A stretch of DNA of 62,402 nt from a virus. Its lineage: Duplodnaviria > Heunggongvirae > Uroviricota > Caudoviricetes. Made by a program: the position numbers and the translations under genes. Below are positions 7,200-51,098 of this stretch, piece after piece. The notes under the pieces were generated by a model, which saw nothing but the letters and a program-made list of their open reading frames with translations, made no database searches and was not told the DNA's origin. Where the stretch lies: IMG/VR virus record IMGVR_UViG_3300029219_000144; one strand, 5' to 3'. Positions within the stretch are counted from its first letter, which is position 1. Every line of letters starts with the position of its first letter.

Positions 7200-7329
7200 C
7201 TACACAAGTAAACAAATCAATCAGTTGATAATGGCGGTCACAATTTGATTCTTTTCTATAAGAATCCGTTGATCGCCACTACTCCCCTTCCATACCTGCA
7301 ATCACATCCTTAAATATCAATAAGTTATA

Positions 7330-8110
7330 GTTGTTTATACAATCAAGAAAACAACTGAATAACAGATCAACGAAACATCAACGCTTTCACCCGATTTGGT
7401 CTAAAAAATTGACGTTTTCACACATCACTGCTTATACCCGTAATTCTACGCAGCAGACAGCGCCACAGCGTCCAATTTTCACCACAGACGACCCAACACA
7501 CTACCAACAAAAACACACGCTCAAAATCGTTCCCGTTGCGTTACACAACCATATAAACAACTTATTTTAAGGCATAGCAAAACAACTAAATAACACACAT
7601 GCCATTCCCCAAAACAACCAACCTCTTTATGGCAGGCTACCGAAAAGACCCACCTCTTCTCCCCAGGCTACCGGACAACCAACCTAACTTTCACAGGCAA
7701 TCCGAAAACATTCATACGCGCGATACCCACGACACGCCATTACCCAAACAGCGAAGAAACACCAGAATCACTGAAACCCCAACGAAGCCTGTAACCGCAA
7801 GGTTTCTCTCAATCCCAAAAGACACGAAACATAACAATCACGGGAAACGCCATTACCCAATACACGAATAACTACAAAAGCCTTCACACACTCCAGACAA
7901 ACAACTCAAACACAATAACGAAAGGAATCGCCAACCTGCCATTACTCCATACACGGAGAAGAACAATCACCAAAACGACGAGAACACCCCATAGAAGAAC
8001 CACCGCAAAACGAACGAAACCACATACACCGACAGAGAGAACAACACGCCCAATTCACCAACAGAAATAGTCGCCGTATAGAACGTTCTGGAAGGAGTGA
8101 GCATTAACGC
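7330..8110 (+). other. ~0.8 kb non-coding tract with strong strand asymmetry (A+C-rich, G/T-poor on the + strand)
   Basis: Visibly few G and T over hundreds of bases (ccaacc, cacgaaac, caaaacgacga motifs); ORFs here lack RBS and have low-complexity translations. Confidence 0.6.
7607..7695 (+). repeat. Degenerate ~85-bp intergenic element, copy A (paired with 10785-10865)
   Basis: Shares aaaacaaccaacctctt .. caggctaccg .. acccacct .. ggctaccg .. caactttc with copy B by eye. Confidence 0.5.
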
Positions 8111-8277
8111 CTATAGAGAGGTTGAGACAGATAAAACACGAAGAAAACACAACATGTATAGCGAAGAAGACAGGTATGTATAAGTGGGGAGGGAAGGAGT
8201 GGTGTCGCCTCCTTTTTCGTATTTATTCAACTCCTGATTTTATCCCCCGTAAAACCCCTACGGTCAGCCTTCGGTCC

Positions 8278-8420
8278 ATACAGGGAAAAGGTTGCATCCC
8301 GCTACAGAAACGGCTGGGTTGCCTTCGGGGAACGGCTGGGGATTTTCAGGGAAACGGTCGAGTTGCCTGTGTGGATTTCGGGAAAAGGCTCGATGCCGGT
8401 TCAGGAACGGCGGCGTACCG
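8278..8420 (+). repeat. Iteron-like cluster: about 6 direct repeats of (C)AGGGAAACGGCT at ~19-32 bp spacing
   Basis: Copies at ~8281, 8305, 8327, 8346, 8378, 8400 (agggaaaagg, cagaaacggc, ggggaacggc, agggaaacgg, gggaaaaggc, caggaacggc). Confidence 0.6.
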
Positions 8421-8746
8421 GTATAGCGAGAGGGAGAGTTGCGGCTACCCACCTGTAATGTGCGGGAAGAAGAGAGGCGCTCACGTGCAGGCGAACTTAC
8501 TTACCGCTGGATTCCCTCTGAATGCCCAGTTACAGCGTAATTGTGCCAGACAGCCAACGGGTCACAATCGATTTCAGTAGGTTTTCGGGGAGATGATTAT
8601 TCTGCCCACCAGCCACCTTCGGCCACTAAATCAGAATAATGTAAAAAGTGTTCTCGGTACTGAACCTGAAAACTCACTGCCAAAACCACATTCACCGGAA
8701 TAAAATCCTTTTTCGCCTGTGCGTTATTGCGATAATAACACCAACA

Positions 8747-8762
8747 AGAAAACATGTTGTTT
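8747..8762. promoter_or_regulatory. Palindrome GAAAACATGTTGTTTA (operator family)
   Basis: Motif lies 13 nt upstream of the ATG at 8775. Confidence 0.5.
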
Positions 8763-10784: not shown

Positions 10785-10865
10785 TAAAAACACCAACCTC
10801 TTACCTCCAGGCAACCGACAAACCCACCTGTTCCCGTCCGGCTACCGCAACTTTCCACTTTGACG
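10785..10865 (+). repeat. Degenerate ~85-bp intergenic element, copy B (paired with 7607-7695)
   Basis: aaaacaccaacctcttacctccaggcaaccgacaaacccacctgttcccgtccggctaccgcaactttccac aligns by eye with copy A. Confidence 0.5.
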
Positions 10866-10898
10866 CCTTATTCGTACAACGATAATTAACACCAATAA

Positions 10899-10913
10899 GA
10901 AAACAATTTGTTA
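10899..10913. promoter_or_regulatory. Palindrome GAAAACAATTTGTTA (operator family)
   Basis: 20 nt upstream of the ATG at 10934. Confidence 0.5.
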
Positions 10914-10933
10914 TTTACGATAAGGAATTAATC

Positions 10934-11416
10934 ATGAATTTTATCGCTACTGTAAACGCACCCGCACATGGCAATATCGCTGTAACGTTCTCTGACATTG
11001 AAAAACGAGTACTTGGTGCATGGCGCGACAATGAGACGGTAGAACTGTCAGCACAAGAAAAATGCATTATTGCACGCGACATCATTGGCAATCGTCGTTA
11101 CTCGCGGGTATTTGAGAAAGCGTATGTGGTAAATTCTGGATTCGGAACGTTCGTCTTTCCGGTGCGCTCCGGGCGATTCTGCCAGTCCAAGCTGATTGAG
11201 TTCGCTACGCAGATTTCTGTCTGGATTAAAACTCAATCGTCGTTCAAATTTTCCGACGATGAAGCAGTATCGCAGGGGATGCGGATCGCCAACAATGCAA
11301 TTAAATGCAAAAACATTACGTATACCGCTGGCGTTGATACATGGAAACTGTTTTGCGCTAACTTTATGCTGAATGTATACGCAAGCAACCGCATCCACAT
11401 CCTTGATGGCGTGTAA
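10934..11416 (+). CDS. hypothetical phage protein (160 aa)
   Basis: ORF with AAGGAA RBS; terminator follows. Confidence 0.55.
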   Translation: MNFIATVNAPAHGNIAVTFSDIEKRVLGAWRDNETVELSAQEKCIIARDIIGNRRYSRVFEKAYVVNSGFGTFVFPVRSGRFCQSKLIEFATQISVWIKTQSSFKFSDDEAVSQGMRIANNAIKCKNITYTAGVDTWKLFCANFMLNVYASNRIHILDGV

Positions 11417-11421
11417 CTGAG

Positions 11422-11448
11422 AAGAGGGCCAGAAACGGCCCTTTCTCT
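11422..11448 (+). terminator. Rho-independent terminator
   Basis: AGGGCC agaaac GGCCCT followed by TTCTCT; the loop contains the iteron core AGAAACGG. Confidence 0.6.
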
Positions 11449-11466
11449 ATAGCCACCAGCTGCCGC

Positions 11467-11555
11467 AGGGAAATTTTCAGAAACGGCGAGGAACGTATTC
11501 ATGAGCCGACGGGAAACGGCCAGGATTTTTTCGGGAAACGGCTGCATTCGCCTTT
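11467..11555 (+). repeat. Second iteron-like cluster (3-4 copies of GGGAAACGGC)
   Basis: cagaaacggc, gggaaacggcc and gggaaacggctg within 90 bp; same core as the 8278-8420 cluster. Confidence 0.55.
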
Positions 11556-12011
11556 ATGTAGAAAAAACATCGGGAAGCTGGTGGAATCCAACCAGCGGTT
11601 GTCGGACAGGTGAGCGGGGAAAATTATGATGACTTTCGTCGCCTGAGACATCCAGATTTCTTTCGTAGCGTAATCACATACGTGATTAAGTGGTGTGATT
11701 ATGTGAAAAATCACGCGCACATAATACGCGAGCGGACACAGAACAACACAAAATGCCGATCCGCGCCGACAAATAAACGCGGATCACATAGCAAGACTAA
11801 AAGCCAATGATTAACCATACGCTATAGCGCAATATAACGCGTTTTAAGCGCGTTAATGTGTTAAGTAATGGGTATGTACTGGCAAGGATATAAAAGCGCG
11901 TCTATGGCGTTATTTTGGCGCTTATTTTTATGTTGTTGGAGTGAGTTAAAGACAATAAAAAACGCGCCATCATTGGCGCGTTATGGTGGGAGTATTGGAA
12001 ACGAAAAAAGC

Positions 12012-12048
12012 GCCCATAGTGGGCGCTCGATTTTATTTGTGTAAACTG
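12012..12048. terminator. Bidirectional hairpin terminator AGCGCCCAtagTGGGCGCT flanked by an A-run and a T-run
   Basis: Perfect 8-bp stem; T-rich on both strands. Confidence 0.65.
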
Positions 12049-12263
12049 ATTTTAAATCCCATTTCTACAAACGCTTTTAACATTAAAAAAATATCAGCGT
12101 CGTTCACGTCTGCTTTTTTTCGCTCCTGGTCGCTCAATAAGTCAATTTTGCGCGTTGTTTCATTTATAAGCTCGACTGCGCGCCCAGCGTAACCAGCGAT
12201 CCCAGCGATGCGATTAACATAATATTCGTTATGGACGTTAACGCCAGCGATAAGAACAAACAT
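12033..12263 (-). CDS. hypothetical protein (76 aa), AT-rich moron cassette
   Basis: Minus-strand ORF in a low-GC block; its stop overlaps the terminator hairpin. Confidence 0.45.
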   Translation of the reverse strand: MFVLIAGVNVHNEYYVNRIAGIAGYAGRAVELINETTRKIDLLSDQERKKADVNDADIFLMLKAFVEMGFKISLHK

Positions 12264-12283
12264 GATTAAGCTCCTTAAAAAAA

Positions 12284-12487
12284 TTAAATAGAATTTTGAA
12301 GTTTTCCGATTAATGCGCTTAAACGTAAGTATTCACGTTTGCGCTTGCAATCTCGCTTGCTGTTAAGCAAATCAGAAAACGTAAAATTTAATTGGTCGCG
12401 TTGCGCGATCAAATCATCGATTAATTCCAGTTTATAAGCGCGATACTTTGCGCGATATTCCGCGCGGATCTTGTCATAGCTGACCAT
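12284..12487 (-). CDS. hypothetical protein (67 aa; ORF-track start at 12532 lies inside a hairpin)
   Basis: Start set at MVSYDKIRAEYRAKY with AAGGAG RBS 8 nt upstream. Confidence 0.45.
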   Translation of the reverse strand: MVSYDKIRAEYRAKYRAYKLELIDDLIAQRDQLNFTFSDLLNSKRDCKRKREYLRLSALIGKLQNSI

Positions 12488-12504
12488 TTTTAAAGCTCCT
12501 TTAA

Positions 12505-12523
12505 AGCGCCCATAGTGGGCGCT
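12505..12523. other. Second copy of the hairpin AGCGCCCATAGTGGGCGCT (identical to 12018-12036)
   Basis: Same 19-bp sequence between the 216-aa gene stop and the next gene's RBS. Confidence 0.6.
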
Positions 12524-12535
12524 TGATTCCATTAA

Positions 12536-13186
12536 TTACGCTTTGAAAGCATCAGCTAAATAATTGTAGAAATCATTTTTAATGAAGCGATATTGCTGAG
12601 TACCAGCTTTCGCGCTCCCAGCTCCTTTGACTTTTTCAACAAGTCCAAGACGTTCGCAAAGATTGATCAACTGGTTGGCTTGAGTATAGCCAGCGTCCAA
12701 TTTAATTTCACACGCTTTTTTAGCTTCATTCATTAAATCGAAAACAGCGCCATTGGTGAACGTGTCGATCTCGTCGTTAATCATATCGATTAAAGCGAAT
12801 ACACGAGATCCTGACATATCAGCGATGGAATAAACGCATTTACCAGATTTAATTGATTTAACCAGATAAACCAGTTTTTCCAGAGAATAACTATTAGTCA
12901 TTGCATCACGGAAAAATACTTCTGGCGCTTGTTTGCTTGCTTTAATCGCATAGTAAAAAACAGAGCATAATTTTTCGTCTTCTACAGCGTTTACAACGTT
13001 GTTGATGAAGTAAGCAAGTTTAGTGGTCGCAGCTTGCATATTTGCTTTGTCTGCTTTAGTGTGCGTACCATTTTTATAATGTTCGTTATATGTTTGAGTT
13101 GCCAGATCTGCTTTTTCGCGCAGCTCGTCGGATACAATAGATGCAGCTTCAATGATGGACTTTTTAGAAATGATAATGTTAGCCAT
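12536..13186 (-). CDS. hypothetical protein (216 aa), AT-rich moron cassette
   Basis: Minus-strand ORF in a low-GC block; no motif recognised. Confidence 0.55.
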   Translation of the reverse strand: MANIIISKKSIIEAASIVSDELREKADLATQTYNEHYKNGTHTKADKANMQAATTKLAYFINNVVNAVEDEKLCSVFYYAIKASKQAPEVFFRDAMTNSYSLEKLVYLVKSIKSGKCVYSIADMSGSRVFALIDMINDEIDTFTNGAVFDLMNEAKKACEIKLDAGYTQANQLINLCERLGLVEKVKGAGSAKAGTQQYRFIKNDFYNYLADAFKA

Positions 13187-13781: not shown

Positions 13782-14306
13782 TCAAAAAGGCAAAATTCGT
13801 TCAACCCAATCGAACAAAACAACTATTTTTCTACCGTTCTCGACACGTAGTGTAACCTGACAAGCATCTGCGCCTGCTGACACCCCCTCAATTTCACGGC
13901 CATCCGCCATGTACACCCTTATAGATTTGTTTGCTTTGTAGGCTTGGTTGCAAATTGCAAAAAAATCGCGGCGTGATGGCCGATTATCGACATAATCAGG
14001 GTGAACTGTTAGTCGACCTTTGAAATCGTGAGCGATACTGTCAACCACACCTGATTCAATTGTACTAATGCGTTCAAGTGGGAGCCTTATACGATTTTCT
14101 TTGTCAAAAGGGGCTGGGCAAAGGTCAACTTTGTTACGAGATGGCATGAGGCCATAAACGTACATGCAAAACGCCTGGCCATCTTCGAGAGTGACCCTTA
14201 CAGGAATTTGTTCTCTGCGCCAGAACATCAGTAGTTTTTCAACGTTAGTGTAATCTCGCGGCCAGAGTTCAGCTTGGATACCGTAGGTAATATCTTTGGT
14301 TGTCAT
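13782..14306 (-). CDS. hypothetical protein (174 aa; ORF-track start 14384 overlaps the upstream gene)
   Basis: Start set at MTTKDITYG, 4 nt after the upstream stop. Confidence 0.45.
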   Translation of the reverse strand: MTTKDITYGIQAELWPRDYTNVEKLLMFWRREQIPVRVTLEDGQAFCMYVYGLMPSRNKVDLCPAPFDKENRIRLPLERISTIESGVVDSIAHDFKGRLTVHPDYVDNRPSRRDFFAICNQAYKANKSIRVYMADGREIEGVSAGADACQVTLRVENGRKIVVLFDWVERILPF

Positions 14307-14310
14307 GTCA

Positions 14311-14775
14311 TCACAGAGTTGTTGGCAGAATGTCGATGTCACCAGAATTGCTGGTGAACACCCTGAACGCTTTTGTGTCTCCATTCTTCAGAGTCGTTTC
14401 TCGCTCTTGACGAGCGGGGTTTAGAGCACATAAACCTGCACCTTCAAGAGATGCACCCACAATTAATTCTCCGGCATTTAAATGGAAAGTCGCTTTTTCG
14501 CCTGTAGCCAGTTTTGCGACAGTTTCGCCGTTGATGAAAATGGAAGCATCACATCCAGCTCCTACAAAACCTGTGTCTCTCATTACCACCAACGTAGCTG
14601 GCGCTGCGCTTTGATACTTGAACACTTTGGCCTGCGGTGCTGGTTTGGCGTCATGGATTGATATTGGGCGTGATTGGCACGCGGTAAGCATCAACACTGG
14701 TAACGTTAGTAGAGGGAGAAGCGAGTATTTCATGATAGTTTTAGAACAGAAAGTGAACAGTATGGGAGACTTCAT
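14311..14775 (-). CDS. putative lipoprotein (154 aa)
   Basis: Hydrophobic N-terminal segment ending in lipobox LMLTAC; GGGAG RBS upstream of the 14775 start. Confidence 0.5.
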   Translation of the reverse strand: MKSPILFTFCSKTIMKYSLLPLLTLPVLMLTACQSRPISIHDAKPAPQAKVFKYQSAAPATLVVMRDTGFVGAGCDASIFINGETVAKLATGEKATFHLNAGELIVGASLEGAGLCALNPARQERETTLKNGDTKAFRVFTSNSGDIDILPTTL

Positions 14776-18735: not shown

Positions 18736-19622
18736 CGGACATCATCATTAAACGCTACCGCCCTGAAGAGTTTCCGCGTCATCTGGACTTTCTGGAGCGA
18801 ATGACTGTTACAAAGGGAACTGTAGAGGACTGGCACGCTCTTAAGTCGCTTCACTACAAAACAGACGGCAAACCTTTCGCGCCAACTTACTATCGCTGCG
18901 AACTTGATGACCGTCTGGTGGGCGTCGTGGTTATGGCTTACCCGAAACTACTGTTGGCACCTCGCCACCGCATGTTTCCTAAGTTGAAACCAACCACTAA
19001 TACCACCGTGGCTAACCAGTACTGGGGTCGGTACGTGAATAACAACTTTGCGGTGATCAGTCGCTCAGTTGTGGATACTCAGTATCGTGGCGTAGGCGTC
19101 TCTTATCGAATGATTAACCTGGTTAGCAGGATGCATGACCGGCCAATCATTGAGATCCAGTCCTCGATGAGCAAATACAATCCCTTCGCCATGAAAGCAG
19201 GGTTTAAGTTCATCCGCCCTGAGCGACCGAAGAGCTATGAAAGTGCACTGCGTGTGTTCCAGCGCCATTTCCGCTCCGACCCGGGTGATAACGAGGCGAT
19301 CGTCAAAGAGTTGTTCGCTATGAGCGAGTCTCGTCGTCGCCGTGCGCTGCGCGATTTGGTGGCGGACTACCATAAGAACAGTTCCCTGGCAAAAGCTGGG
19401 CGGAATCGTGGCACGACGATTCAGGACATTGCCGACAGTCTGGTGGACGAGGCCAGCATTGTGAAGCTGCTCAAGGACATTCACAACCTGAGCTTTACGT
19501 CTCCGTTGTATGGTGTGTACCGAAACCCTGACTTTGGCCGTCGACTGCCTGACACGCTGCCACTGCTGGCATTCGACAAACAACCTTTGGATAAACCGTT
19601 AGAAATTGCTTTACCGGCATAA
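18732..19622 (+). CDS. GNAT-like acyltransferase-fold protein with a C-terminal extension (296 aa)
   Basis: Motif-A-like QYRGVGVSYRMINLV (Q/R-x-x-G-x-G/A) after a hydrophobic strand LVGVVVMAY; start overlaps the upstream stop. Confidence 0.45.
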   Translation: MTDIIIKRYRPEEFPRHLDFLERMTVTKGTVEDWHALKSLHYKTDGKPFAPTYYRCELDDRLVGVVVMAYPKLLLAPRHRMFPKLKPTTNTTVANQYWGRYVNNNFAVISRSVVDTQYRGVGVSYRMINLVSRMHDRPIIEIQSSMSKYNPFAMKAGFKFIRPERPKSYESALRVFQRHFRSDPGDNEAIVKELFAMSESRRRRALRDLVADYHKNSSLAKAGRNRGTTIQDIADSLVDEASIVKLLKDIHNLSFTSPLYGVYRNPDFGRRLPDTLPLLAFDKQPLDKPLEIALPA

Positions 19623-19631
19623 GGATTTGCC

Positions 19632-19898
19632 ATGACGTTAACCGACAAACAAAAGGACATCATCAAAACGCTCAATCTCGGTTATGAGCGAGGTCATCTA
19701 CTTGATCTGGACGAATTGCTTGAAGTTTTGCCGTACAAGACAACAAAGCAAAGTATCCAGTTCTCAATTCGCGCTCTGATAAAAAAGGGGCTGGTGGAGA
19801 AAGGGCATACGCGCCAACGCAGTGACAATCGCTATCACCGCCGGACTCTTGGGTTAACCACTTTAGGTCGAGCCAAAGCGAAGTTACTGGTGATGTAA
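19632..19898 (+). CDS. small winged-helix-like DNA-binding protein (88 aa)
   Basis: Region KTTKQSIQFSIRALIKKGLVEKGH resembles a recognition helix plus wing; last gene of the operon. Confidence 0.4.
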   Translation: MTLTDKQKDIIKTLNLGYERGHLLDLDELLEVLPYKTTKQSIQFSIRALIKKGLVEKGHTRQRSDNRYHRRTLGLTTLGRAKAKLLVM

Positions 19899-19922
19899 TC
19901 GGTCTGGGAGCTTATTTAAAGA

Positions 19923-19979
19923 CCTGCTTCCGTATATATAAATAATAAGTAACTTATTAAATATATATACGGAAGCAGG
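19923..19979. repeat. 57-bp near-perfect palindromic element (copy 1), CCTGCTTCCGTATATATA..TATATATACGGAAGCAGG
   Basis: 18-bp arms around an AT-rich palindromic core containing ATAAGTAACTTAT; second copy at 52280-52336. Confidence 0.65.
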
Positions 19980-20015
19980 CTTAGTAAGACATGCCAGACC
20001 TAATTAAACACCCCA

Positions 20016-20057
20016 GAAAACAAGTTGGTTAGCAGATGCAGTAAACAAGTTGTTTTA
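20016..20057. promoter_or_regulatory. Two adjacent operator-family palindromes (GAAAACAAGTTGGTT and TAAACAAGTTGTTTTA) upstream of terS
   Basis: Tandem copies about 45 nt before the ATG at 20096. Confidence 0.5.
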
Positions 20058-20095
20058 GAGCGCATGGACGCGCTCTGTGTGTTTTAGAGGGATCT

Positions 20096-20728
20096 ATGAC
20101 GGTCGAAAAAGACGAGGTAAAAACTCGCCTGACACCAGCGGAGTGGGCCGAAGCTGAAGCCAAATGGACGTCAGGCGAATATACACTCTCAAAGCTGGAG
20201 GAAGAGTACGGCATTCGTCGTGAAACACTCTCCAGACATTTCAAAAAGCGAGGATTAGAGAAAGGCGCGGACTCTGTTGGGAAGATGGTTCGTGAGTCTC
20301 TTAAATCTGACGCAGAGCTTCGCGCTAAAGCCCGTGCGGAAAAGATAGAAGAACGTCGTACACGTTATGACGGCTGGGCGTATGCGTTGGGGCAGATGGT
20401 GATGGTCGAAGTCACTACGGCCAAACGTGAGGGTAAGCCTTTAGGGGCGATTGAGGATTCTCTCAAGAGCTTACAGAGAGCCAGTAATACCCTTGCAAAA
20501 TGCTTTGAAGTTTCGTCCAAAGCATTGGGCATGGATCATGCGGAAAATGACGAGGAAGAAATTCCGAACCTGGTATTTGGTGAGCTTACGCCTTCCCAGG
20601 TGGCGAAATTACGTCAGGAAGACGACGAGCCTGAAATCATCGATGACGAATTGCTTGAGACGTTGGAAGAAGAAGCTCTAAGCGAATTTGATGCGACAGA
20701 TGATGGAATTGAAGGGGAGGACGAATAA
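20096..20728 (+). CDS. Terminase small subunit (predicted)
   Basis: 210-aa protein with an HTH-like N-terminus, acidic C-terminus, immediately upstream of terL. Confidence 0.55.
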   Translation: MTVEKDEVKTRLTPAEWAEAEAKWTSGEYTLSKLEEEYGIRRETLSRHFKKRGLEKGADSVGKMVRESLKSDAELRAKARAEKIEERRTRYDGWAYALGQMVMVEVTTAKREGKPLGAIEDSLKSLQRASNTLAKCFEVSSKALGMDHAENDEEEIPNLVFGELTPSQVAKLRQEDDEPEIIDDELLETLEEEALSEFDATDDGIEGEDE

Positions 20729-35557: not shown

Positions 35558-36256
35558 ATGGGAATTAAAGCTGATATTCAGAGCTTATCTCCCTCTGCAC
35601 TCATTGAGTTGTTCGTACTGGATATGTCGAACACAACTTCAGGGGGGAAGCTATTCTTCCACGCCGGAACAAACGAACTGATGCAACCGGTCGTCTGGCA
35701 AGGAGTGACATACGAGCCGTGGCCAATCAAAGCATCAGGCTTTGACAAAACTGGCCAGGGAACGTTGCCACGTCCAAAAATTCAGGTATCGAACTTTGCC
35801 GGAACTGTCTCTGCGGAAGTTCAGGCAAACGACGATCTTGTTGGCTGCCGCATTATTCGCAAGATGACGCTGGCTCGCTTCCTCGATGCCGTTAATTTTA
35901 AAGACGGCAACCCAACAGCAGATCCAAACCAACATTTCCCGGATGAAATGTGGTTTATCGAACAGAAAACTCTCGAAACTCATCAGGTTGTCGAGTTTGA
36001 ATTGTCCAGTGTGTTCGATTTGATGGGGGTGCAACTGCCGTATCGTCAGATCATTAAAAACACCTGCCCGTGGAAATACCGAGGGCCAGAATGCGGCTAT
36101 ACCGGTCCATATTTCGACAAAAATAACCAGCAGACGTCTATGTCTGGTGCTGATTACTGCACAAAACGTTATGACGCCTGTAATGCGCGTCGGAATTATT
36201 TTGCCAACGGAGTGATCCATTTTGGCGGGTTTATTGGAGCTACGCGATATGGGTAA
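35558..36256 (+). CDS. Minor tail protein L (lambda gpL homolog)
   Basis: Regions VWQGVTYEPWPI, ARFLDAVNF and NTCPWKYRGPECGYTGP match lambda gpL as recalled. Confidence 0.8.
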   Translation: MGIKADIQSLSPSALIELFVLDMSNTTSGGKLFFHAGTNELMQPVVWQGVTYEPWPIKASGFDKTGQGTLPRPKIQVSNFAGTVSAEVQANDDLVGCRIIRKMTLARFLDAVNFKDGNPTADPNQHFPDEMWFIEQKTLETHQVVEFELSSVFDLMGVQLPYRQIIKNTCPWKYRGPECGYTGPYFDKNNQQTSMSGADYCTKRYDACNARRNYFANGVIHFGGFIGATRYG

Positions 36257-37046
36257 TAAAGCAATCCCTGAGCTTGGCTCTGATGTTATGCAGCAAATCT
36301 ATCTCTGCGCCATAAATCGCTACCCTAATGAAGCGTGTGGCTTTCTGGTGAGAACTAATGGCGACAAATATCGCTTTATGGAAGCGCGAAATGTTTCGGA
36401 GAACCCGCAGAACACTTTTGTAATGCACGTTGACGACATTATGGCGGCAGAGGATGCAGGTGACGTAATCGCAATCTGGCATTCACATACTGATGAATCA
36501 GCAGAAGCATCTGATGCCGATCGTGCAGGCTGTGAAGCGACGGAAGTTCCGTGGATGATTCTGGCTATTCGCAAGAATGTTGAGGGAGATGCCCCTTTCC
36601 ATTTTAGCGAGATGAATGTGATCACACCTGATGGTTTCGAAATGCCATACCTGGGTAGACCGTATGTATTTGGCGTATTCGATTGCTGGATGTTGTGTCG
36701 GGACTATTTGAAGCGTGAGTTTAACGTCGAGCTTAACCCGAACGCACACCTGCATATTCCATCGTGGTACACCGGCGATAACGACATTCTCGACCAGAAC
36801 TACCGAAACGAGGGATTGGTACGGCTTGCGCCTGGAACAGAGCCTCAACGTGGGGACGTCTTCTTTATTCAATACGGAAAAATGCCTGACCACTGTGCGG
36901 TTTATATCGGCGATGGAATGATTCTTCATCACCAGATCGACCGCCTTAGTTGTCGTGCTTATTACGGCGGGATGTATCAGAAACATACGACGCATCACTT
37001 GCGTCACAGAGACTTGCTCAAGGGAGATGAGACGTGTCTGAGTTAG
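36249..37046 (+). CDS. Tail assembly protein K (JAB/MPN metalloprotease plus NlpC/P60-like)
   Basis: PNEACGFLV and JAMM-like IAIWHSHTDESAEASDADRAG motifs; Cys/His-containing C-terminal half; overlaps L by 8 nt. Confidence 0.75.
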   Translation: MGNKAIPELGSDVMQQIYLCAINRYPNEACGFLVRTNGDKYRFMEARNVSENPQNTFVMHVDDIMAAEDAGDVIAIWHSHTDESAEASDADRAGCEATEVPWMILAIRKNVEGDAPFHFSEMNVITPDGFEMPYLGRPYVFGVFDCWMLCRDYLKREFNVELNPNAHLHIPSWYTGDNDILDQNYRNEGLVRLAPGTEPQRGDVFFIQYGKMPDHCAVYIGDGMILHHQIDRLSCRAYYGGMYQKHTTHHLRHRDLLKGDETCLS

Positions 37047-37624
37047 TTCATGTGCAGCTTGGCGGCCCTATGGCCAAACATTTTGGCCGCCACTGGCATC
37101 TAAAGGTGCGTAATACAAAACAGGCTCTGGATTTAATTGAGGCCAACAAGCCTGGGTTTAAAGCATGGATGAAGCGCAATATCAAAACCTATGACAGATA
37201 CCACATCCAGATCACCAATAAACAGGGCCACAAGTGGTCTGTGGACGAGAGTGAATATCAGATGATGGGGCAGTCTGACAATATTGCAAAAATCCGCATT
37301 ACCCCTGTTCCGCGAGGAAGTGGTGGATCTGCTTTTGGATGGTTTCAGACGGTTGTTGGAGCAGTATTAATGGTTGCCTCGATATGGGTGCCCGCTCTTG
37401 CGCCTCTCGGTTTGTCACTGATGATGGGCGGTATAGCGCAAATCATATCTCCGCAAGCCACTAACGAAAGTGTGAGGCAGGCGGATAACTCGAACTCTTA
37501 TTACTTTGATGGACCTCAAAACACAACAAACCAGGGGAACCCTGTACAGCTTATCTATGGCGAGGAAATTTTAGTTGGCTCACAGGTCGTGAGTTCTTCT
37601 ATCACCATCGACCAGCTTATGTAA
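37034..37624 (+). CDS. Tail assembly protein I (lambda gpI-like)
   Basis: C-terminal NPVQLIYGEEILVGSQVVS resembles lambda gpI; Gly-rich hydrophobic middle. Confidence 0.7.
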   Translation: MSELVHVQLGGPMAKHFGRHWHLKVRNTKQALDLIEANKPGFKAWMKRNIKTYDRYHIQITNKQGHKWSVDESEYQMMGQSDNIAKIRITPVPRGSGGSAFGWFQTVVGAVLMVASIWVPALAPLGLSLMMGGIAQIISPQATNESVRQADNSNSYYFDGPQNTTNQGNPVQLIYGEEILVGSQVVSSSITIDQLM

Positions 37625-37635
37625 TCAAGGATTTT

Positions 37636-40600
37636 TTGGACATGGAACAGTTCAAGAAGAAAAAATTACCGCTTCTTATTGCCGGTGCTGGTGGCAAGAA
37701 AAGTAAAAGCTCCAGCCGTACCCCGGTTGAAGCTGATGATACTGTCAATTCTCGTGCTATGGCAGCCATCCTCGACCTTCTTGGCGAGGGGGTTATCGGT
37801 GGCCTGGTAAATGGCGCAAAGTCGATCTTCATCGACGATTTACCGATCTTGAATGAAGATGGCTCTTCCAACTTCAGCGGTATTACATGGGATTTTCGTG
37901 ACGGCTCACAAGATCAGACGCCAATGGCTGGTTTTGATTTTGTCGAAACGCCTAAGTCCGTAAATATTCAGCTTAAAAAAACACACGACGTTACGGTTTC
38001 AATCGATAACGATGAAGCTGATCGCGTTCGTGTCATCATGAAATTCCCCTCTTTACGTAGCGTTGATAAAAGCTCTGGCGATACAAATGGCACTACGGTG
38101 AAGTACAAATTCCAGATCGCCAACGCAGACGCAACATTTTCTGATGTAGTGGCAGAAGGTGAGAAAAGCGTTGATATCACGCTAACGGCAAAGAAAACCG
38201 GCGTGTATTACCGTAGCTATGAGCTGAAACTGCCTAAGCCTGGTCGTGCATACAAGGTTAGGGTGATTCGTCTTACAGATGATAATAGTAGCCAGTACCT
38301 CTACAACGACACATGGGTTGATTCCATCGGTGAGATTGTCGACACGCCAATGAACTACCCTAACTCTGCTCTTGTTGGCTTGAAGGTCAATTCAGAGCAG
38401 TTTGGTAGCACAATGCCTTCCCGTTCGTATTTGGTGCGCGGTATCAAAATCCGAGTACCGTCAAACTACAACGAATACACCAATACTTATGTCGGCGTAT
38501 GGGACGGTACTTTTAAGCTGTTGTCTTCTTCAAACCCTGCGTGGATTCTCTACGATTTGCTTACCAATACTCGGTATGGTCTTGGGCAATTTGTGTCGGA
38601 ATCCATGATTGACCTCGGCCAGCTCTACCAGATTGGTCGATATTGTGACGAAGAGGTCGATGATGGCTTTGGGGGTAAAGAGAAACGCTTTGCAATCAAT
38701 ACGCAGATCACCAGTCGACAAGACGCATACCGATTAATTCAGGATATTGCCGGTGCATTCCGCGGCATGGTGTTTTGGGCTGGTGGCATGGTTAACATCA
38801 TGCAGGATAGCCCATCAGATCCGGTAATGATGTTTACCAACTCCAACGTCAAAGATGGACTGTTTACCTATAAAGGTTCTGCGCGTAAAGATCGCCCATC
38901 CGTTGCGCTCGTAACCTACAACAACAAGGAGGACGGTTATAAGCAAAACATCGAATACGTTGAAGATCAGGACGCAATGCGCCGTTATGGTGAGCGTAAA
39001 ACAGAAGTCGTAGCATTTGGATGTACAAGCCGAGGCCAGGCTCACCGAGTTGGTTTGTGGCTTTTGTATACCGCCAGAATGGAGTCGGATGTAATTACAT
39101 TTACTGCCGGCTTAGACGCCTCATTTCTGATGCCTGGTGAAACCGTTCTGATTCAGAACAAATATCGTGCAGGTAAACGTAACTCCGGTCGAATTGTGGA
39201 GTTTACCAAAAACAGCATCACTCTCGATGCGCCTGTGTCGTTAGCTAAAAGTGGCAGCTTTATTCGGATATTGAATCAGGAAGGCAAAATCGTTGAACGC
39301 GATGTTCTTGAAACTGGCGAAAACATAACAAAGGTTACGTTTTCAAAAGCCCTGTCGTCAGCGGAAACGCCTGTTTTGAACGGTGTCTGGACAATTACAG
39401 AACCAGATCTCGAACCTATGCGCGTTCGCATCGTTAACATCGCGCAGGGGGAAACGCCGGGTAGCTTTGACATCACCGCTGTTGAGAACAATCCGTCTAA
39501 ATATGAGGCAATCGACAATGGCGCAACGCTGATCCCGCAGAATACGACGGTATTGGACCCAACTTACTCCAAGCCATCTAATCTGCAAATCACTGAAGGG
39601 ACTTATCTCTCAAGCCCGGGCAACCTGTCAGTAAAACTGACTGCAACATGGGAAGGAAAATCTCCAGAGTATTGGATCAGTTGGCGACGTTCTGATGAAA
39701 ACAATGTATCGAACTGGCAATCGGCGCGTGTAACCGAAGAGCAATACGAAATCGTTAATGTCGCGGAGAATGGACACTACGACTTCCAACTGTATGCGGT
39801 TTCATTCAACGGTAAAAAAACAGAGATTATCAGTACCGTTTATCAGGTGTTGGGCACAATGACACCGCCGGATGCCCCAACGTCATTAACGGCCGTTGGA
39901 GACTATCGTAATGTGATACTGAATTGGGTTAATCCAGATTCGGTAGACCTTGATCACATTAATGTTTACGCATCCCAGACCAACAATCTGGATACGGCGA
40001 AACTGATCGCAGAGTCTGCAAGCACCACCTTTACACATGCTGGTCTTGGGGATAGCGAAACGTGGTATTACTGGGTTCGAGCATCGAACAAGCGAGGTAT
40101 GTTAAGCCCTCCGAACTCAAACTTGGGTACAGAGGCGACAACTCGCGATGTACTGTCGTTCCTGGCTGGCAAAATTACATCTTCCGAGCTTGGTCAGGCT
40201 CTGCTTGAGGACATCAACAGCAAAGCCTCTCAAGAAGCAGTTGACGAGTTAAATGAGCATATCAACCAGAGCGTCGAATCTTTGGAGGGGGCGGTAAACG
40301 ACGTTAAGGAAGATATAGCTGAATTAGATAAGCAGTTCAGCGATAACCTCGCGGGTTTTGAAATAAAATTCAACGAGCGTAGCGATGCTTTGGAGAACGC
40401 ACAAACCGAGCTTAAAGGTGAGGTTTCGGCAACGATCGACAAGGTCAATGAAGCGTTTGAAAAAATTGATGCTACTGATGCTGCAATTGTTGAAATCGAA
40501 AACACCGTATCTGAACACGATAAAGCTCTCGCTAATACAGTCGAGGCAATAAAGGCTGCAAGAGATGAAGCGGCGGCTCTTATTGCTAAGGAAAGCGAGG

Positions 40601-50429: not shown

Positions 50430-51098
50430 ATGACCAAGATCTTTGTGGTTGGCGGCACAAAGGGCGGGCCTGGCAAATCCACCGTTGCCCAGCAAATTGC
50501 CGTTTGCCTGAAAGTCAAAAAGAAGAAGAAGGTTTATATTACCGATATAGATATTCAGCGCACGACAACGAGCTGGTGTGAAGACCGTCGACAGAACGAA
50601 GACCTTGAGCTGATTCCTTTTGCATACGTTCAGGATGACATCATTAAGCACCTAAAATCGCTTCAGGGTAGAGCTGAGTTTGTAGTGGTAGATGCTGGTG
50701 GCTTCGACTCCGAAATTCAGCGACAAGCGATGCTGATGGCTGACGTTATCATTATCCCGCTGCGTCCTAAGCGTCGTGATTTGAAATCTTTACGTGACAT
50801 CGATCCTATTATCGACAATGTTCGCAATGTAAACGATAAAGTGAAGGTCCGCGCGGTCATGAACCAGTGCCCGGCTTTGCCATCACAAGTGTCTCGCATT
50901 CTGGCGGCTAAAGAGATTGTCGAGACGTTTGGCATCGAGTCTGCGCCAGTCAATCTATATAACCGCAACGTCTACGATGATGCGGAAGAGTCTGGTCGTT
51001 CTATCTTCGAAATGACCGGTAGCGAGCGCGACAAAAAGGCGGAAGCCGAGTTTGAAGAATTTGTAGATTATCTGTTGAGTCTGGAGGAAGAAGAATAA
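50430..51098 (+). CDS. ParA/ParF-type partition ATPase (small, type Ib-like)
   Basis: Deviant Walker A GGTKGGPGKST in a 222-aa protein. Confidence 0.75.
   Translation: MTKIFVVGGTKGGPGKSTVAQQIAVCLKVKKKKKVYITDIDIQRTTTSWCEDRRQNEDLELIPFAYVQDDIIKHLKSLQGRAEFVVVDAGGFDSEIQRQAMLMADVIIIPLRPKRRDLKSLRDIDPIIDNVRNVNDKVKVRAVMNQCPALPSQVSRILAAKEIVETFGIESAPVNLYNRNVYDDAEESGRSIFEMTGSERDKKAEAEFEEFVDYLLSLEEEE

What the first reader, a model, noticed from the sequence alone, without database searches (positions are those of the whole stretch)
11450..12048. Hairpin-dense convergent intergenic region between plus-strand early genes and the minus-strand moron cassette
About 600 bp with no ORF but several perfect or near-perfect inverted repeats: AATCACATACGTGATT, GATCCGCG..CGCGGATC, AACGCGCC atcatt GGCGCGTT, plus the second iteron cluster and the bidirectional terminator. 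Such density in a convergent gap suggests small RNA genes, an origin or a recombination/packaging site.
Basis: seen in the sequence. Interest (0 to 1): 0.5.

Follow-up and report, generated by a model that had tools for sequence, protein, structure and literature searches.

The report
Conserved non-coding junction in phage-plasmid
The 600-bp gene-free gap is a real, strongly conserved non-coding element of SSU5/pHCM2/pMT1-type phage-plasmids, made of transcription stop signals, an array of phased protein-binding repeats flanked by two Chi recombination signals, and two invariant palindromes; it looks like a DNA site for replication or segregation rather than a small-RNA gene, but its function is untested.

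Summary
Window 11417-12032 has no conserved ORF and about nine perfect hairpins, against roughly 1.6 in shuffles. The window is an SSU5/pHCM2/pMT1-type phage-plasmid. The gap is syntenic in 784 plasmid records across more than eight genera. Its left and right thirds are far more conserved (76% and 67% identity, E. coli vs Y. pestis) than four-fold sites of the adjacent gene (37%).

Anatomy:
1. An intrinsic terminator.
2. Direct repeats TTTCGGGAAACGGC with cores 22/33 bp apart. They are paralogous to a second array 3.1 kb upstream and are not the RepB oriR iterons, which lie about 40 kb away.
3. Two Chi octamers in opposite orientation bracketing the array, kept in 52-57 of 60 variants.
4. A mosaic spacer. 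The palindromes AATCAC..GTGATT and GATCCGCG..CGCGGATC are lineage-specific.
5. Terminator-like hairpins, two with invariant stems and flipping loops.

A highly conserved winged-helix protein is encoded next door.

There is no Rfam family, no conserved promoter, no covariation beyond terminators, and no sRNA at this locus in a Y. pestis RNA-seq survey.

Best reading: a cis-acting protein-binding DNA site, probably for replication or segregation, combined with convergent terminators. Its function is unproven. Interest is moderate.

The parts
11422..11447 (+). Intrinsic terminator of the rightward small-gene cassette (stem AGGGCC/GGCCCT at 11425-11442, then a T-rich tail).
   Evidence: It is conserved as a hairpin with compensatory changes: GGGCC/GGCCC versus GGGGC/GCCCC, and GGGGAGA/TCTCCC in the most divergent relatives.
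11453..11460 (-). Chi site (CCACCAGC on the + strand, i.e. GCTGGTGG on the - strand). It is oriented to act on RecBCD arriving from the left.
   Evidence: Present in 52 of 60 unique gap variants.
11463..11581 (+). Repeat array 2. Members: GCAGGGAAA (11465-11473), CAGAAACGGC (11478-11487), CGGGAAACGGCC (11510-11521), CGGGAAACGGCT (11532-11543) and a degenerate TCGGGAAGCTGG (11570-11581). Core spacing is 33 and 22 bp.
   Evidence: The 22-bp spacing is kept in most of the 62 variants and the preceding spacing is 33/34 bp. The cores are invariant while the spacers vary.
11577..11584 (+). Chi site (GCTGGTGG), oriented to act on RecBCD arriving from the right.
   Evidence: Present in 57 of 60 variants, in at least five different sequence contexts, at 124-170 bp from the left Chi.
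11585..11800 (.). Mosaic, poorly conserved spacer with lineage-specific palindromes: TAATCAC/GTGATTA (11671-11688), GTGATT/AATCAC (11695-11714), ATTATGTG/CACATAAT (11698-11725) and GATCCGCG/CGCGGATC (11758-11785). An ATCAC/GTGAT motif recurs in all lineages.
   Evidence: Identity between E. coli and pMT1 is 48%. Recombination breakpoints between lineages fall here.
11835..11855 (+). Hairpin Ha (TAACGCG-ttttaag-CGCGTTA). In most lineages it is a + strand terminator, AAAACGCG..CGTGTTTTTT, with G-U-compatible changes.
11865..11929 (.). Conserved block GTAATGGGTATGTAC, followed by the weak hairpin/T-tract AAAGCGCG..GCGTTATTTTGGCGCTTATTTTT.
11961..11982 (-). Hairpin Hc (AACGCGCCA-tcat-TGGCGCGTT). 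Its form is that of a - strand terminator. The stem is invariant in 56 variants, and the loop occurs in both reverse-complement forms.
12008..12035 (.). Hairpin Hd (AGCGCCCA-tag-TGGGCGCT) with an A-run on one side and a T-run on the other, forming a bidirectional terminator that ends the leftward operon. The stem is invariant and the loop flips.
   Evidence: It is also kept in the most divergent relatives.
8196..8420 (+). Paralogous module upstream: a terminator (8196-8220) followed by repeat array 1 (six GGGAAA(A/C)GG cores, 8272-8420, mostly 22-31 bp apart).
   Evidence: In the whole plasmid the motif clusters only at these two sites.
12536..13186 (-). Gene for a 216-aa protein with an N-terminal helical hairpin and a C-terminal winged-helix DNA-binding domain. 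It is a candidate, not a demonstrated, binder of the repeats or palindromes.
12506..12522 (.). Second copy of the Hd palindrome GCGCCCATAGTGGGCGC, at the end of the next small leftward gene. It forms a cassette boundary.

Best explanation
The gap is a conserved, composite, cis-acting DNA region at the junction of two convergent transcription units of an SSU5/pHCM2/pMT1-type phage-plasmid.

Shown by the analyses:
- An intrinsic terminator ends the rightward cassette. Two or more hairpin terminators end the leftward operon.
- Next to the left terminator lies an array of same-strand repeats (core GGGAAACGGC). The two best copies are exactly 22 bp apart and the next is 33 bp away.
- The array is duplicated 3.1 kb upstream behind another terminator.
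- The array is bracketed by two Chi octamers that face outwards.
- The left and right thirds of the gap are under purifying selection, while the middle is a recombination mosaic.

Inferred:
- The repeats are binding sites for a sequence-specific DNA-binding protein of the element. The best candidate is the neighbouring, very conserved 216-aa winged-helix protein.
- The resulting nucleoprotein complex acts on the DNA molecule in replication or segregation. It could be an iteron-type second (lytic or auxiliary) origin, or a pairing partner in the manner of P4 ori/crr. It does not encode RNAs.
- The flanking Chi sites switch RecBCD from degradation to repair before it reaches the complex, and they make the gap a recombination hotspot.
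For: Distribution and conservation:
- The gap is syntenic and alignable in 784 plasmid records from Escherichia, Klebsiella, Enterobacter, Yersinia, Salmonella, Citrobacter and Cronobacter. It occurs in 239 of 5426 complete E. coli genomes, always on plasmids.
- Between the window and pMT1, identity is 76% in the left third and 67% in the right third. Four-fold sites of the adjacent gene are 37.5% identical and its protein 68%.
- No frame is conserved.

The repeats:
- Cores are invariant and spacers variable. The 22-bp spacing is kept in most of the 62 variants.
- The two arrays are paralogous over about 110 nt. They are the only clusters of the motif in the plasmid.
- They differ from the RepB iterons GTATGCTGTCAGCGG.
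- The same core and 22-bp pitch serve as origin iterons inside O-like initiator genes of lambdoid contigs.
- As RNA, the left part folds no better than shuffles (z = -0.6).

Chi sites:
- The window has 18 Chi against 1.5 expected.
- Only 0.8% of 650-bp windows in the plasmid hold two or more.
- The pair is kept in 52 and 57 of 60 variants, in different sequence contexts.
- The -|+ polarity at the array is the origin-type arrangement. The best two-half split of Chi orientation falls at 11501-11551 in the E. coli plasmid and ties there in a Klebsiella relative.

Neighbouring protein: winged-helix fold.

Most divergent relatives: they keep the terminator, the GGGAAACGGCT repeats and the GCGCC palindromes.
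Against: - No binding, replication or segregation activity has been shown.
- No DnaA box, IHF site or strongly AT-rich unwinding element lies next to the array.
- No Rep- or O-type initiator homologue is detectable in the plasmid.
- The Chi-polarity split is not significant on its own (permutation P = 0.14 and 0.66).
- The two most divergent relatives lack the Chi pair.
- Fold matches of the 216-aa protein are generic winged helices, with Foldseek E = 0.015-0.1. They do not separate an initiator from a regulator, a centromere binder or a terminator protein.
- An IS1541 sits in the right part of the gap in Pestoides-type pMT1. That part is therefore dispensable for plasmid maintenance in Y. pestis.
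Confidence: 0.5

Rival explanations
1. An ordinary convergent-terminator zone with operator sites. The hairpins simply stop the two operons, and some are scars of gained or lost small-gene cassettes. The GGGAAACGGC arrays are operators for a transcription regulator, possibly the winged-helix protein. That regulator would silence or insulate the six-gene cassette between the two arrays, for example by looping as lambda OL/OR do.
For: - There are 10 terminator-like sites against 2.5 expected.
- The Hd hairpin is repeated at the end of the next small gene, and the right-flank genes vary between lineages as cassettes.
- The two arrays bracket six small genes that each have their own promoter-like leader.
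- Many of the best fold matches of the 216-aa protein are MarR/ArsR/PadR regulators.
Against: - Neither array overlaps a recognisable promoter. Both lie just downstream of terminators.
- The stems of Hc and Hd are invariant across lineages, whereas the first terminator evolves by compensatory change. That is more constraint than termination alone requires.
- This reading does not explain the conserved Chi pair.
Confidence: 0.22
2. A partition (centromere-like) site. The arrays of direct repeats are bound by a winged-helix centromere-binding protein, in the way TubR binds tubC. They work with the element's small ParA-like ATPase (50430-51098), with centromeres dispersed in the genome as in phage-plasmid N15.
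For: - No repeat array lies beside the ParA-like gene.
- The repeats form two clusters.
Against: - pMT1 has its own P1/P7-type par system (from established knowledge, not tested here), yet it keeps the arrays.
- Fold similarity is at the level of a generic winged helix.
- No TubZ-type partner was seen among the window proteins that were scanned; this was not tested across the whole element.
- No functional data exist.
Confidence: 0.1
3. RNA-level element. Either the right half (about 11870-12035, + strand) is an Hfq-type sRNA with an internal hairpin, a U-rich stretch and a terminator, or the GGA-rich repeat arrays are transcribed as a sponge for an RNA-binding protein. Candidate proteins are CsrA or the neighbouring FljA-like protein.
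For: - There is a sub-threshold Rfam hit to Hrs1 at 11954-12020 (+), 32 bits, E = 5e-4.
- The right half folds better than shuffles (z = -2.0 on + and -4.0 on -).
- All repeats lie on the transcribed-strand side of the flanking + genes and contain GGA. This is seen directly in the sequence.
- An FljA-like RNA-binding regulator is conserved 1.8 kb away.
Against: - No family reaches its gathering score.
- No conserved promoter is found.
- The left array is unstructured as RNA.
- There is almost no covariation, and hairpin loops invert, which changes any RNA sequence.
- The strictly conserved 22-bp spacing and the AACGGC part of the core go beyond what a GGA-binding protein needs.
- The Y. pestis sRNA catalogue has no RNA at pMT1 36.0-36.6 kb.
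Confidence: 0.08
4. Packaging recognition site. The GGAAACG cores are small-terminase binding sites, like the R elements of lambda cosB. The Chi sites protect the DNA end left after the first cut.
For: - Lambda R3, R2 and R1 share the heptamer CGTTTCC/GGAAACG with the repeat core.
- Chi sites lie next to the array.
- GATCAC-type motifs in the spacer recall the Dam-containing hexamers of P1 pac (from knowledge, not tested).
Against: - The array is 8.5 kb from the terminase genes, and a 474-bp non-coding stretch lies directly upstream of the TerS candidate.
- The TerS candidate shows no Nu1 family match.
- TerL is of the Terminase_6N/Terminase_3 type, which I take (from established knowledge) to be typical of headful packaging.
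- There is no IHF site.
- All repeats are direct, unlike the R3/R2 arrangement.
- A shared heptamer can easily arise by chance.
Confidence: 0.07

Closest known systems
Iteron-type replication origins and control loci (lambda ori inside gene O; P1 incC/incA; P4 ori plus crr)
   Same: - Several same-orientation repeats share a conserved 10-12-bp core at a 22-bp pitch.
- A second cluster lies a few kb away, as with P4 ori/crr or P1 incC/incA.
- An identical core and pitch serve as origin iterons inside O-like genes of lambdoid contigs found here.
   Different: - No recognisable initiator gene is present.
- No adjacent AT-rich element or DnaA boxes are present.
- The arrays lie behind terminators in non-coding DNA.
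- They are not the iterons of the element's own RepB replicon.
Chi sites (5'-GCTGGTGG-3') and Chi-dependent protection and hotspots in E. coli and lambda
   Same: - The octamer matches exactly.
- Chi is strongly over-represented in the element (18 against 1.5 expected).
- The pair is conserved in varied contexts.
- Recombination mosaicism lies right beside them.
   Different: Two sites in opposite orientation lie 124-170 bp apart around a repeat array. I know of no described element with this arrangement (statement from my own knowledge). RecBCD interaction was not tested, and the two most divergent relatives lack the pair.
Bidirectional intrinsic terminators between convergent operons, and moron-type cassette terminators
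   Same: They are GC-rich hairpins flanked by an A-run and a T-run at the ends of convergent genes. The same hairpin is repeated after each small leftward gene.
   Different: The stems are invariant over a divergence at which the neighbouring terminator changes by compensatory substitutions, and the loops flip between reverse-complement forms. Four to six hairpins in 250 bp is more than termination needs.
Winged-helix proteins that bind repeated DNA sites (TubR-tubC, B. subtilis RTP-Ter, Orc1/Cdc6 WH on origin DNA, MarR/ArsR regulators)
   Same: The adjacent 216-aa protein has a C-terminal winged helix that superposes on these proteins. It sits beside arrays of repeats and perfect palindromes.
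   Different: Similarity is at fold level only, with no sequence family. The N-terminal long helical hairpin is not part of those proteins. Binding has not been shown.
Lambda cosB R elements (gpNu1 sites)
   Same: They share the heptamer GGAAACG/CGTTTCC and also occur as several copies within about 120 bp.
   Different: Orientation pattern, the IHF site, adjacency to cosN and the terminase genes, and the TerS family all differ.

Membership tests
Iteron-type replication origin | Three or more direct repeats with a conserved core, phased at about two helical turns. | tested here: met
   Cores lie at 11480, 11513 and 11535, with spacings of 33 and 22 bp. The 22-bp spacing is kept in most of the 62 variants. 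Array 1 has six cores 22-31 bp apart.
Iteron-type replication origin | A cognate initiator (Rep/O-type) encoded in or beside the repeats. | tested here: inconclusive
   No homologue of the O-like initiator that uses the same core was found (tblastn and HMM). There are no Pfam, NCBIfam or PHROG functions for the flanking genes. A winged-helix protein is encoded next door.
Iteron-type replication origin | Adjacent AT-rich unwinding element and host-factor sites (DnaA, IHF). | tested here: not met
   AT content is 42-55% around the array, and there is no DnaA box or IHF consensus in 11400-12050.
Iteron-type replication origin | Supports initiation of replication. | not testable with these tools
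   This needs cloning, 2D gels or marker-frequency analysis.
RepB (IncFIB-type) oriR/inc iterons of this plasmid | The iteron sequence of the resident initiator, next to repB. | tested here: not met
   The RepB iterons are GTATGCTGTCAGCGG, flanking repB about 40 kb away. The GGGAAACGGC motif does not occur there.
Known small-RNA / cis-regulatory RNA families (Rfam 15) | A score at or above the family's gathering threshold. | tested here: not met
   No hit was found in the gap at gathering thresholds. The best sub-threshold hit is Hrs1 at 32 bits against 56.4.
Structured non-coding RNA in general | A conserved secondary structure supported by covariation, and a promoter. | tested here: not met
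   RNAalifold on 56 variants gives only terminator hairpins, with a single covarying pair. The only promoter-like site is lineage-specific. The left part has z = -0.6.
Intrinsic (Rho-independent) terminator | A GC-rich hairpin followed by a T-run on the transcribed strand, at a gene end. | tested here: met
   Terminators are found at 11425-11442 (+), at 12028-12008 and 11982-11961 (-), and at 12009-12027 (+). Termination itself was not measured.
Chi site | The exact octamer GCTGGTGG, with orientation-dependent action on RecBCD. | tested here: met
   The octamers lie at 11453-11460 (-) and 11577-11584 (+) and are conserved. This covers sequence only; activity cannot be tested here.
Lambda-type cosB / terminase recognition site | TerS-binding repeats next to the cut site and the terminase genes, with a Nu1-type TerS. 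| tested here: not met
   The heptamer is shared, but the site is 8.5 kb from terS/terL, the TerS candidate has no Nu1 match, and there is no IHF site.
CsrB/RsmZ-type protein-sponge RNA | Many GGA motifs presented in hairpin loops of an expressed RNA. | tested here: inconclusive
   GGA motifs are frequent in both arrays. However, the predicted fold is not better than shuffles, and there is no promoter and no Rfam match. Expression was not tested.

The most novel reading that the evidence does not exclude
The two GGGAAACGGC arrays, together with the adjacent 216-aa winged-helix protein, would form the still-unknown second (lytic-cycle) replication origin system of SSU5/pHCM2/pMT1-type phage-plasmids. 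It would be a bipartite origin of the P4 ori/crr kind, using a new initiator family. Outward-facing Chi sites would guard it, stopping RecBCD at the origin and turning it into the recombination hotspot that generates the mosaicism seen between lineages.
Probability: 0.2. Interest if true: 0.65.

Novelty: new variant of a known kind. Interest (0 to 1): 0.5.

Why it matters
SSU5-type phage-plasmids are very common. This gap alone occurs in 784 plasmid records and in 239 of 5426 complete E. coli genomes. The family includes pMT1 of the plague bacillus and pHCM2 of S. Typhi, and its members carry resistance genes.

Their plasmid replicon (RepB) is known. What controls lytic replication, packaging and segregation is not. 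A non-coding element that is better conserved than its neighbouring genes, contains phased protein-binding repeats and is flanked by Chi sites is a concrete, testable candidate for one of those functions.

The element would also be a useful typing or targeting site, and a natural case for studying how Chi sites are positioned around a nucleoprotein complex. If it proves to be only terminators plus operators, the result still annotates a blank spot shared by hundreds of sequenced plasmids.

Tried and rejected
- **RepB iterons.** Rejected. The RepB iterons have a different sequence and lie next to repB about 40 kb away. The 'iterons 48-218 bp downstream of repA' reported for IncpKPHS1 plasmids (PMC6735626) fit those RepB-side repeats rather than this gap. 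The paper's supplement was not available.
- **Hidden protein gene.** Rejected. ORFs of 30-100 aa exist in every lineage, but in different frames and positions, and they run through the hairpins.
- **Long-range RNA stem CCACCAGC/GCTGGTGG enclosing the repeats.** Rejected. Either site can be lost alone with no compensatory change, and the complementarity is mostly limited to the Chi octamer.
- **Homologue of the lambdoid O-like initiator that uses the same iteron core.** None found by tblastn or a custom HMM.
- **Function for the 160-aa upstream gene.** A good AF2 model (pLDDT 86) has no PDB fold match, and Pfam, PHROGs and NCBIfam give nothing.
- **Cumulative GC skew of the full plasmid.** It follows gene orientation only and gives no origin or terminus signal.
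- **Chi-orientation split.** The best split falls at the gap in two genomes but is not significant. A third genome was not analysed for lack of calls.
- **Transcript evidence.**
  - The LF82/Cyrano study counted genes only.
  - The Y. pestis sRNA list has no entry at this locus.
  - A 2026 preprint on phage-plasmid copy number could not be opened.
- **Site scans.** XerCD/cer-like, Tus-Ter-like, sigma-54 and DnaA-box readings of short conserved blocks were considered by eye or by pattern. They were dropped because the matches were poor or lineage-specific.
Full report
**What the window is.** The region matches Escherichia phages CMS-2020a, PhiR41_1 and Cyrano at 96-98% identity. It matches plasmid CP099286.1 at 100%. 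These are SSU5-type phage-plasmids. In annotated relatives the finding lies between a 160-aa gene (window 10934-11416, +) and small leftward genes (12033-12263, -). No feature is annotated in the gap.

**The observation.**
- The gap 11417-12032 holds nine distinct perfect hairpins with stems of at least 6 bp. That is 16 nested configurations against a mean of 1.6 in 1000 dinucleotide shuffles, and it ties for the top tile of the 62-kb window.
- It holds 10 terminator-like sites against 2.5 expected.
- ORFs of 30-100 aa exist, but none keeps its frame or position across 22 representative homologues.

**Distribution and conservation.**
- The gap is alignable over most of its length in 784 PLSDB plasmids of Klebsiella, Escherichia, Enterobacter, Yersinia (pMT1), Salmonella (pHCM2), Citrobacter and Cronobacter.
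- It occurs in 239 of 5426 complete E. coli genomes, always on plasmids.
- I collected 60 unique versions and aligned them.
- For window versus pMT1, four-fold degenerate sites of the adjacent 160-aa gene are 37.5% identical and its protein 68%. The gap is 76% identical in its left third, 48% in the middle and 67% in the right third.
- Other pairs behave alike. For a Klebsiella plasmid (L005) versus pMT1 (L006), four-fold sites are 39% identical against 93/87/82% for the three thirds of the gap.
- The left and right thirds are thus under constraint, or are exchanged as units. The middle is a mosaic with clear lineage-specific replacements.

**Left module.**
- *Terminator.* Directly after the stop codon comes a hairpin plus T-rich tail (11425-11442). 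It changes by compensatory substitutions between lineages, as expected of a working terminator.
- *Repeats.* Same-strand repeats with the core GGGAAACGGC follow. The two best copies (11510-11521 and 11532-11543) are exactly 22 bp apart in most of the 62 variants, and the preceding copy is 33/34 bp away. Cores are invariant while spacers vary.
- *Paralogue.* A paralogous module, again a terminator followed by repeats, lies at 8196-8420 and aligns over about 110 nt. It is also conserved in relatives. In a full relative the motif clusters only at these two places.
- *Not the RepB iterons.* The plasmid replicon is elsewhere. A RepB-family gene about 40 kb away is flanked by at least 16 copies of a different iteron, GTATGCTGTCAGCGG.
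- *As RNA.* The left module folds no better than shuffles (z = -0.6).
- *A parallel in lambdoid contigs.* A scan of viral contigs for two GGAAACGG cores 22 bp apart returned many lambdoid contigs. In them, 4-5 such repeats lie inside an O-like initiator gene and are followed by an AT-rich stretch, which is a lambda-type origin. No homologue of that initiator exists in this plasmid.
- *Missing origin hallmarks.* No DnaA box, IHF site or AT-rich element adjoins the array.

**Chi sites.**
- The array is bracketed by CCACCAGC (11453-11460) and GCTGGTGG (11577-11584). These are the E. coli Chi octamer in both orientations, each facing outwards.
- The window has 18 Chi against 1.5 expected. Only 0.8% of 650-bp windows of the whole plasmid contain two.
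- The right-hand Chi is present in 57 of 60 variants, in at least five different sequence contexts. The left one is present in 52 of 60. Some lineages carry four Chi in 650 bp.
- Either site can be lost alone, which argues against an RNA or DNA stem as the reason for their conservation.
- I rebuilt the full plasmid in window orientation to look at Chi orientation genome-wide. Chi sites are mostly on the - strand at 4.6-15.3 kb and mostly on the + strand at 19.8-59 kb. They are on the - strand again at 70-89 kb, although genes there are on the + strand.
- The best division into two half-circles falls at 11501-11551 (17 of 22), and the same point ties for best in a Klebsiella relative (17 of 26). 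Permutation P values are only 0.14 and 0.66, so this is suggestive and no more.
- The two most divergent relatives lack the pair.

**Middle.**
- AATCACATACGTGATT, ATTATGTG/CACATAAT and GATCCGCG/CGCGGATC exist only in the E. coli/E. fergusonii lineage.
- In other lineages only the arm CGCGGATCAC and a recurrent ATCAC/GTGAT motif persist.

**Right module.**
- Four hairpins share the theme of an A-run, a GCGC-rich stem and a T-run.
- Hc (11961-11982) and Hd (12009-27) have stems that are invariant in 56 variants and are also kept in the most divergent relatives.
- Their loops occur as reverse-complement pairs even between near-identical genomes.
- Hd is repeated at 12506-12522. GCGCC-type hairpins occur only in this local region of the plasmid: Hd at 12010 and 12506, and Hc at 11964.
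- The small leftward genes next to the gap come and go between lineages, each bounded by this hairpin.
- The right half folds better than shuffles (z = -2.0 on + and -4.0 on -), which simply reflects these hairpins.

**RNA-gene reading.**
- No Rfam family reaches threshold. The best sub-threshold hit is Hrs1 at 32 bits against 56.4.
- The only promoter-like site is lineage-specific.
- RNAalifold finds nothing beyond terminators.
- The homologous gap in pMT1 strain 91001 lies at 36002-36638. The Y. pestis RNA-seq catalogue (PMC3770706) lists pMT1 sRNAs only at 66.1, 98.1 and 105.8 kb.
- An IS1541 interrupts the right module in Pestoides-type pMT1.

**Neighbouring proteins.**
- The 160-aa protein is confined to this element family and has no fold match.
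- The 216-aa protein (12536-13186, -) is 82-87% identical across genera.
- Its model shows a long N-terminal helical hairpin plus a C-terminal winged helix.
- The winged helix superposes on Orc1/Cdc6 WH, B. subtilis RTP, TubR and MarR/ArsR/PadR proteins.
- In the most divergent relative this gene abuts the gap.
- It is a plausible but unproven binder of the repeats or palindromes.

**Other leads.**
- Lambda cosB R3/R2/R1 share the heptamer GGAAACG with the repeat core.
- However, the terminase genes are 8.5 kb away, and the TerS candidate is not Nu1-like.
- TerL is of the Terminase_6N/Terminase_3 type, which I take (from established knowledge) to be typical of headful packaging.

**Verdict.** The gap is a genuine, conserved, composite cis-acting DNA region. 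It combines convergent terminators, a phased protein-binding repeat array with a paralogue 3.1 kb upstream, flanking Chi sites and invariant palindromes. I favour a replication or segregation-type nucleoprotein site (confidence 0.5 for the general model, about 0.2 for a true second origin). The rivals are a terminator/operator zone (0.22), a centromere (0.10), RNA genes (0.08) and a packaging site (0.07).

Noticed in passing
window 7250-8150: A non-coding stretch of about 900 nt whose + strand is C/A-rich and G/T-poor (GC skew -0.4 to -0.49, AT skew up to +0.57). It has internal repeats CAGGCTACCG..CCACCT, which also occur at 10808-10850. It has no Rfam match and is followed by a terminator and repeat array 1. 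It may be a Rho-utilisation-like or unstructured leader region.
   Followed up: partly
window 8725-8760 and 10880-10930: The small + strand genes at 8754 and 10934 are each preceded by a near-identical leader, CGATAAT(A/T)AACACCAA(C/T)AAGAAAACA..TTGTT, containing a GATAAT -10-like box. They look like independently promoted cassettes (family D3).
   Followed up: no
window 11961-11982 and 12009-12027: The hairpin loops occur as exact reverse complements (ATCATT/AATGAT, TTGTT/AACAA, ATAG/CTAT) among otherwise near-identical genomes, while the stems stay invariant. This is flip-flop inversion at perfect palindromes.
   Followed up: partly
window 12033-12532: The 76-aa and 67/82-aa leftward genes are present singly or together in different lineages. 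Each is bounded by the same palindrome, GCGCCCATAGTGGGCGC, which suggests cassette gain and loss by recombination at the hairpin.
   Followed up: partly
window 13782-14384 (-): This gene encodes an FljA-like protein (PF03614 'repressor of phase-1 flagellin', E = 2.5e-84, with a weak Hfq-like C-terminal hit). It is conserved in synteny even in the most divergent relatives.
   Followed up: no
whole window; Klebsiella relative NZ_CP092399.1: Chi (GCTGGTGG) is about 12-fold over-represented (18 against 1.5 expected). The Klebsiella relative has 7 Chi within the 3.3 kb that spans the small-gene cassette and the gap. Orientation does not follow gene strand at 70-89 kb.
   Followed up: partly
NC_009378.1 (Y. 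pestis Pestoides F pMT) 36346-37704; locus L142: An IS1541A (IS200/IS605 family) is inserted in the gap just 5' of hairpin Hc in Pestoides-type pMT1 plasmids.
   Followed up: yes
locus L150 5700-5800: The most divergent relative carries about nine tandem 8-mers (CTAAACTG/CTAAATGG) at the position where the main lineages have 2-4 copies of GCTAAAACGC-like units. This third kind of repeat in the gap expands and contracts.
   Followed up: no
loci L064, L029, L031 and about 30 other IMG/VR contigs: A family of lambdoid prophages has origin iterons TGGAAACGGCTCAAGAGCCGAA (spacings 22/45/44/25) inside an O-like initiator gene (phrog_9773), next to ydaT-like and ParB-like genes.
   Followed up: partly
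window 19622-20096: A 474-bp non-coding stretch with a Chi site (19790) lies directly upstream of the putative small terminase gene. It is the a priori likelier place for pac.
   Followed up: no
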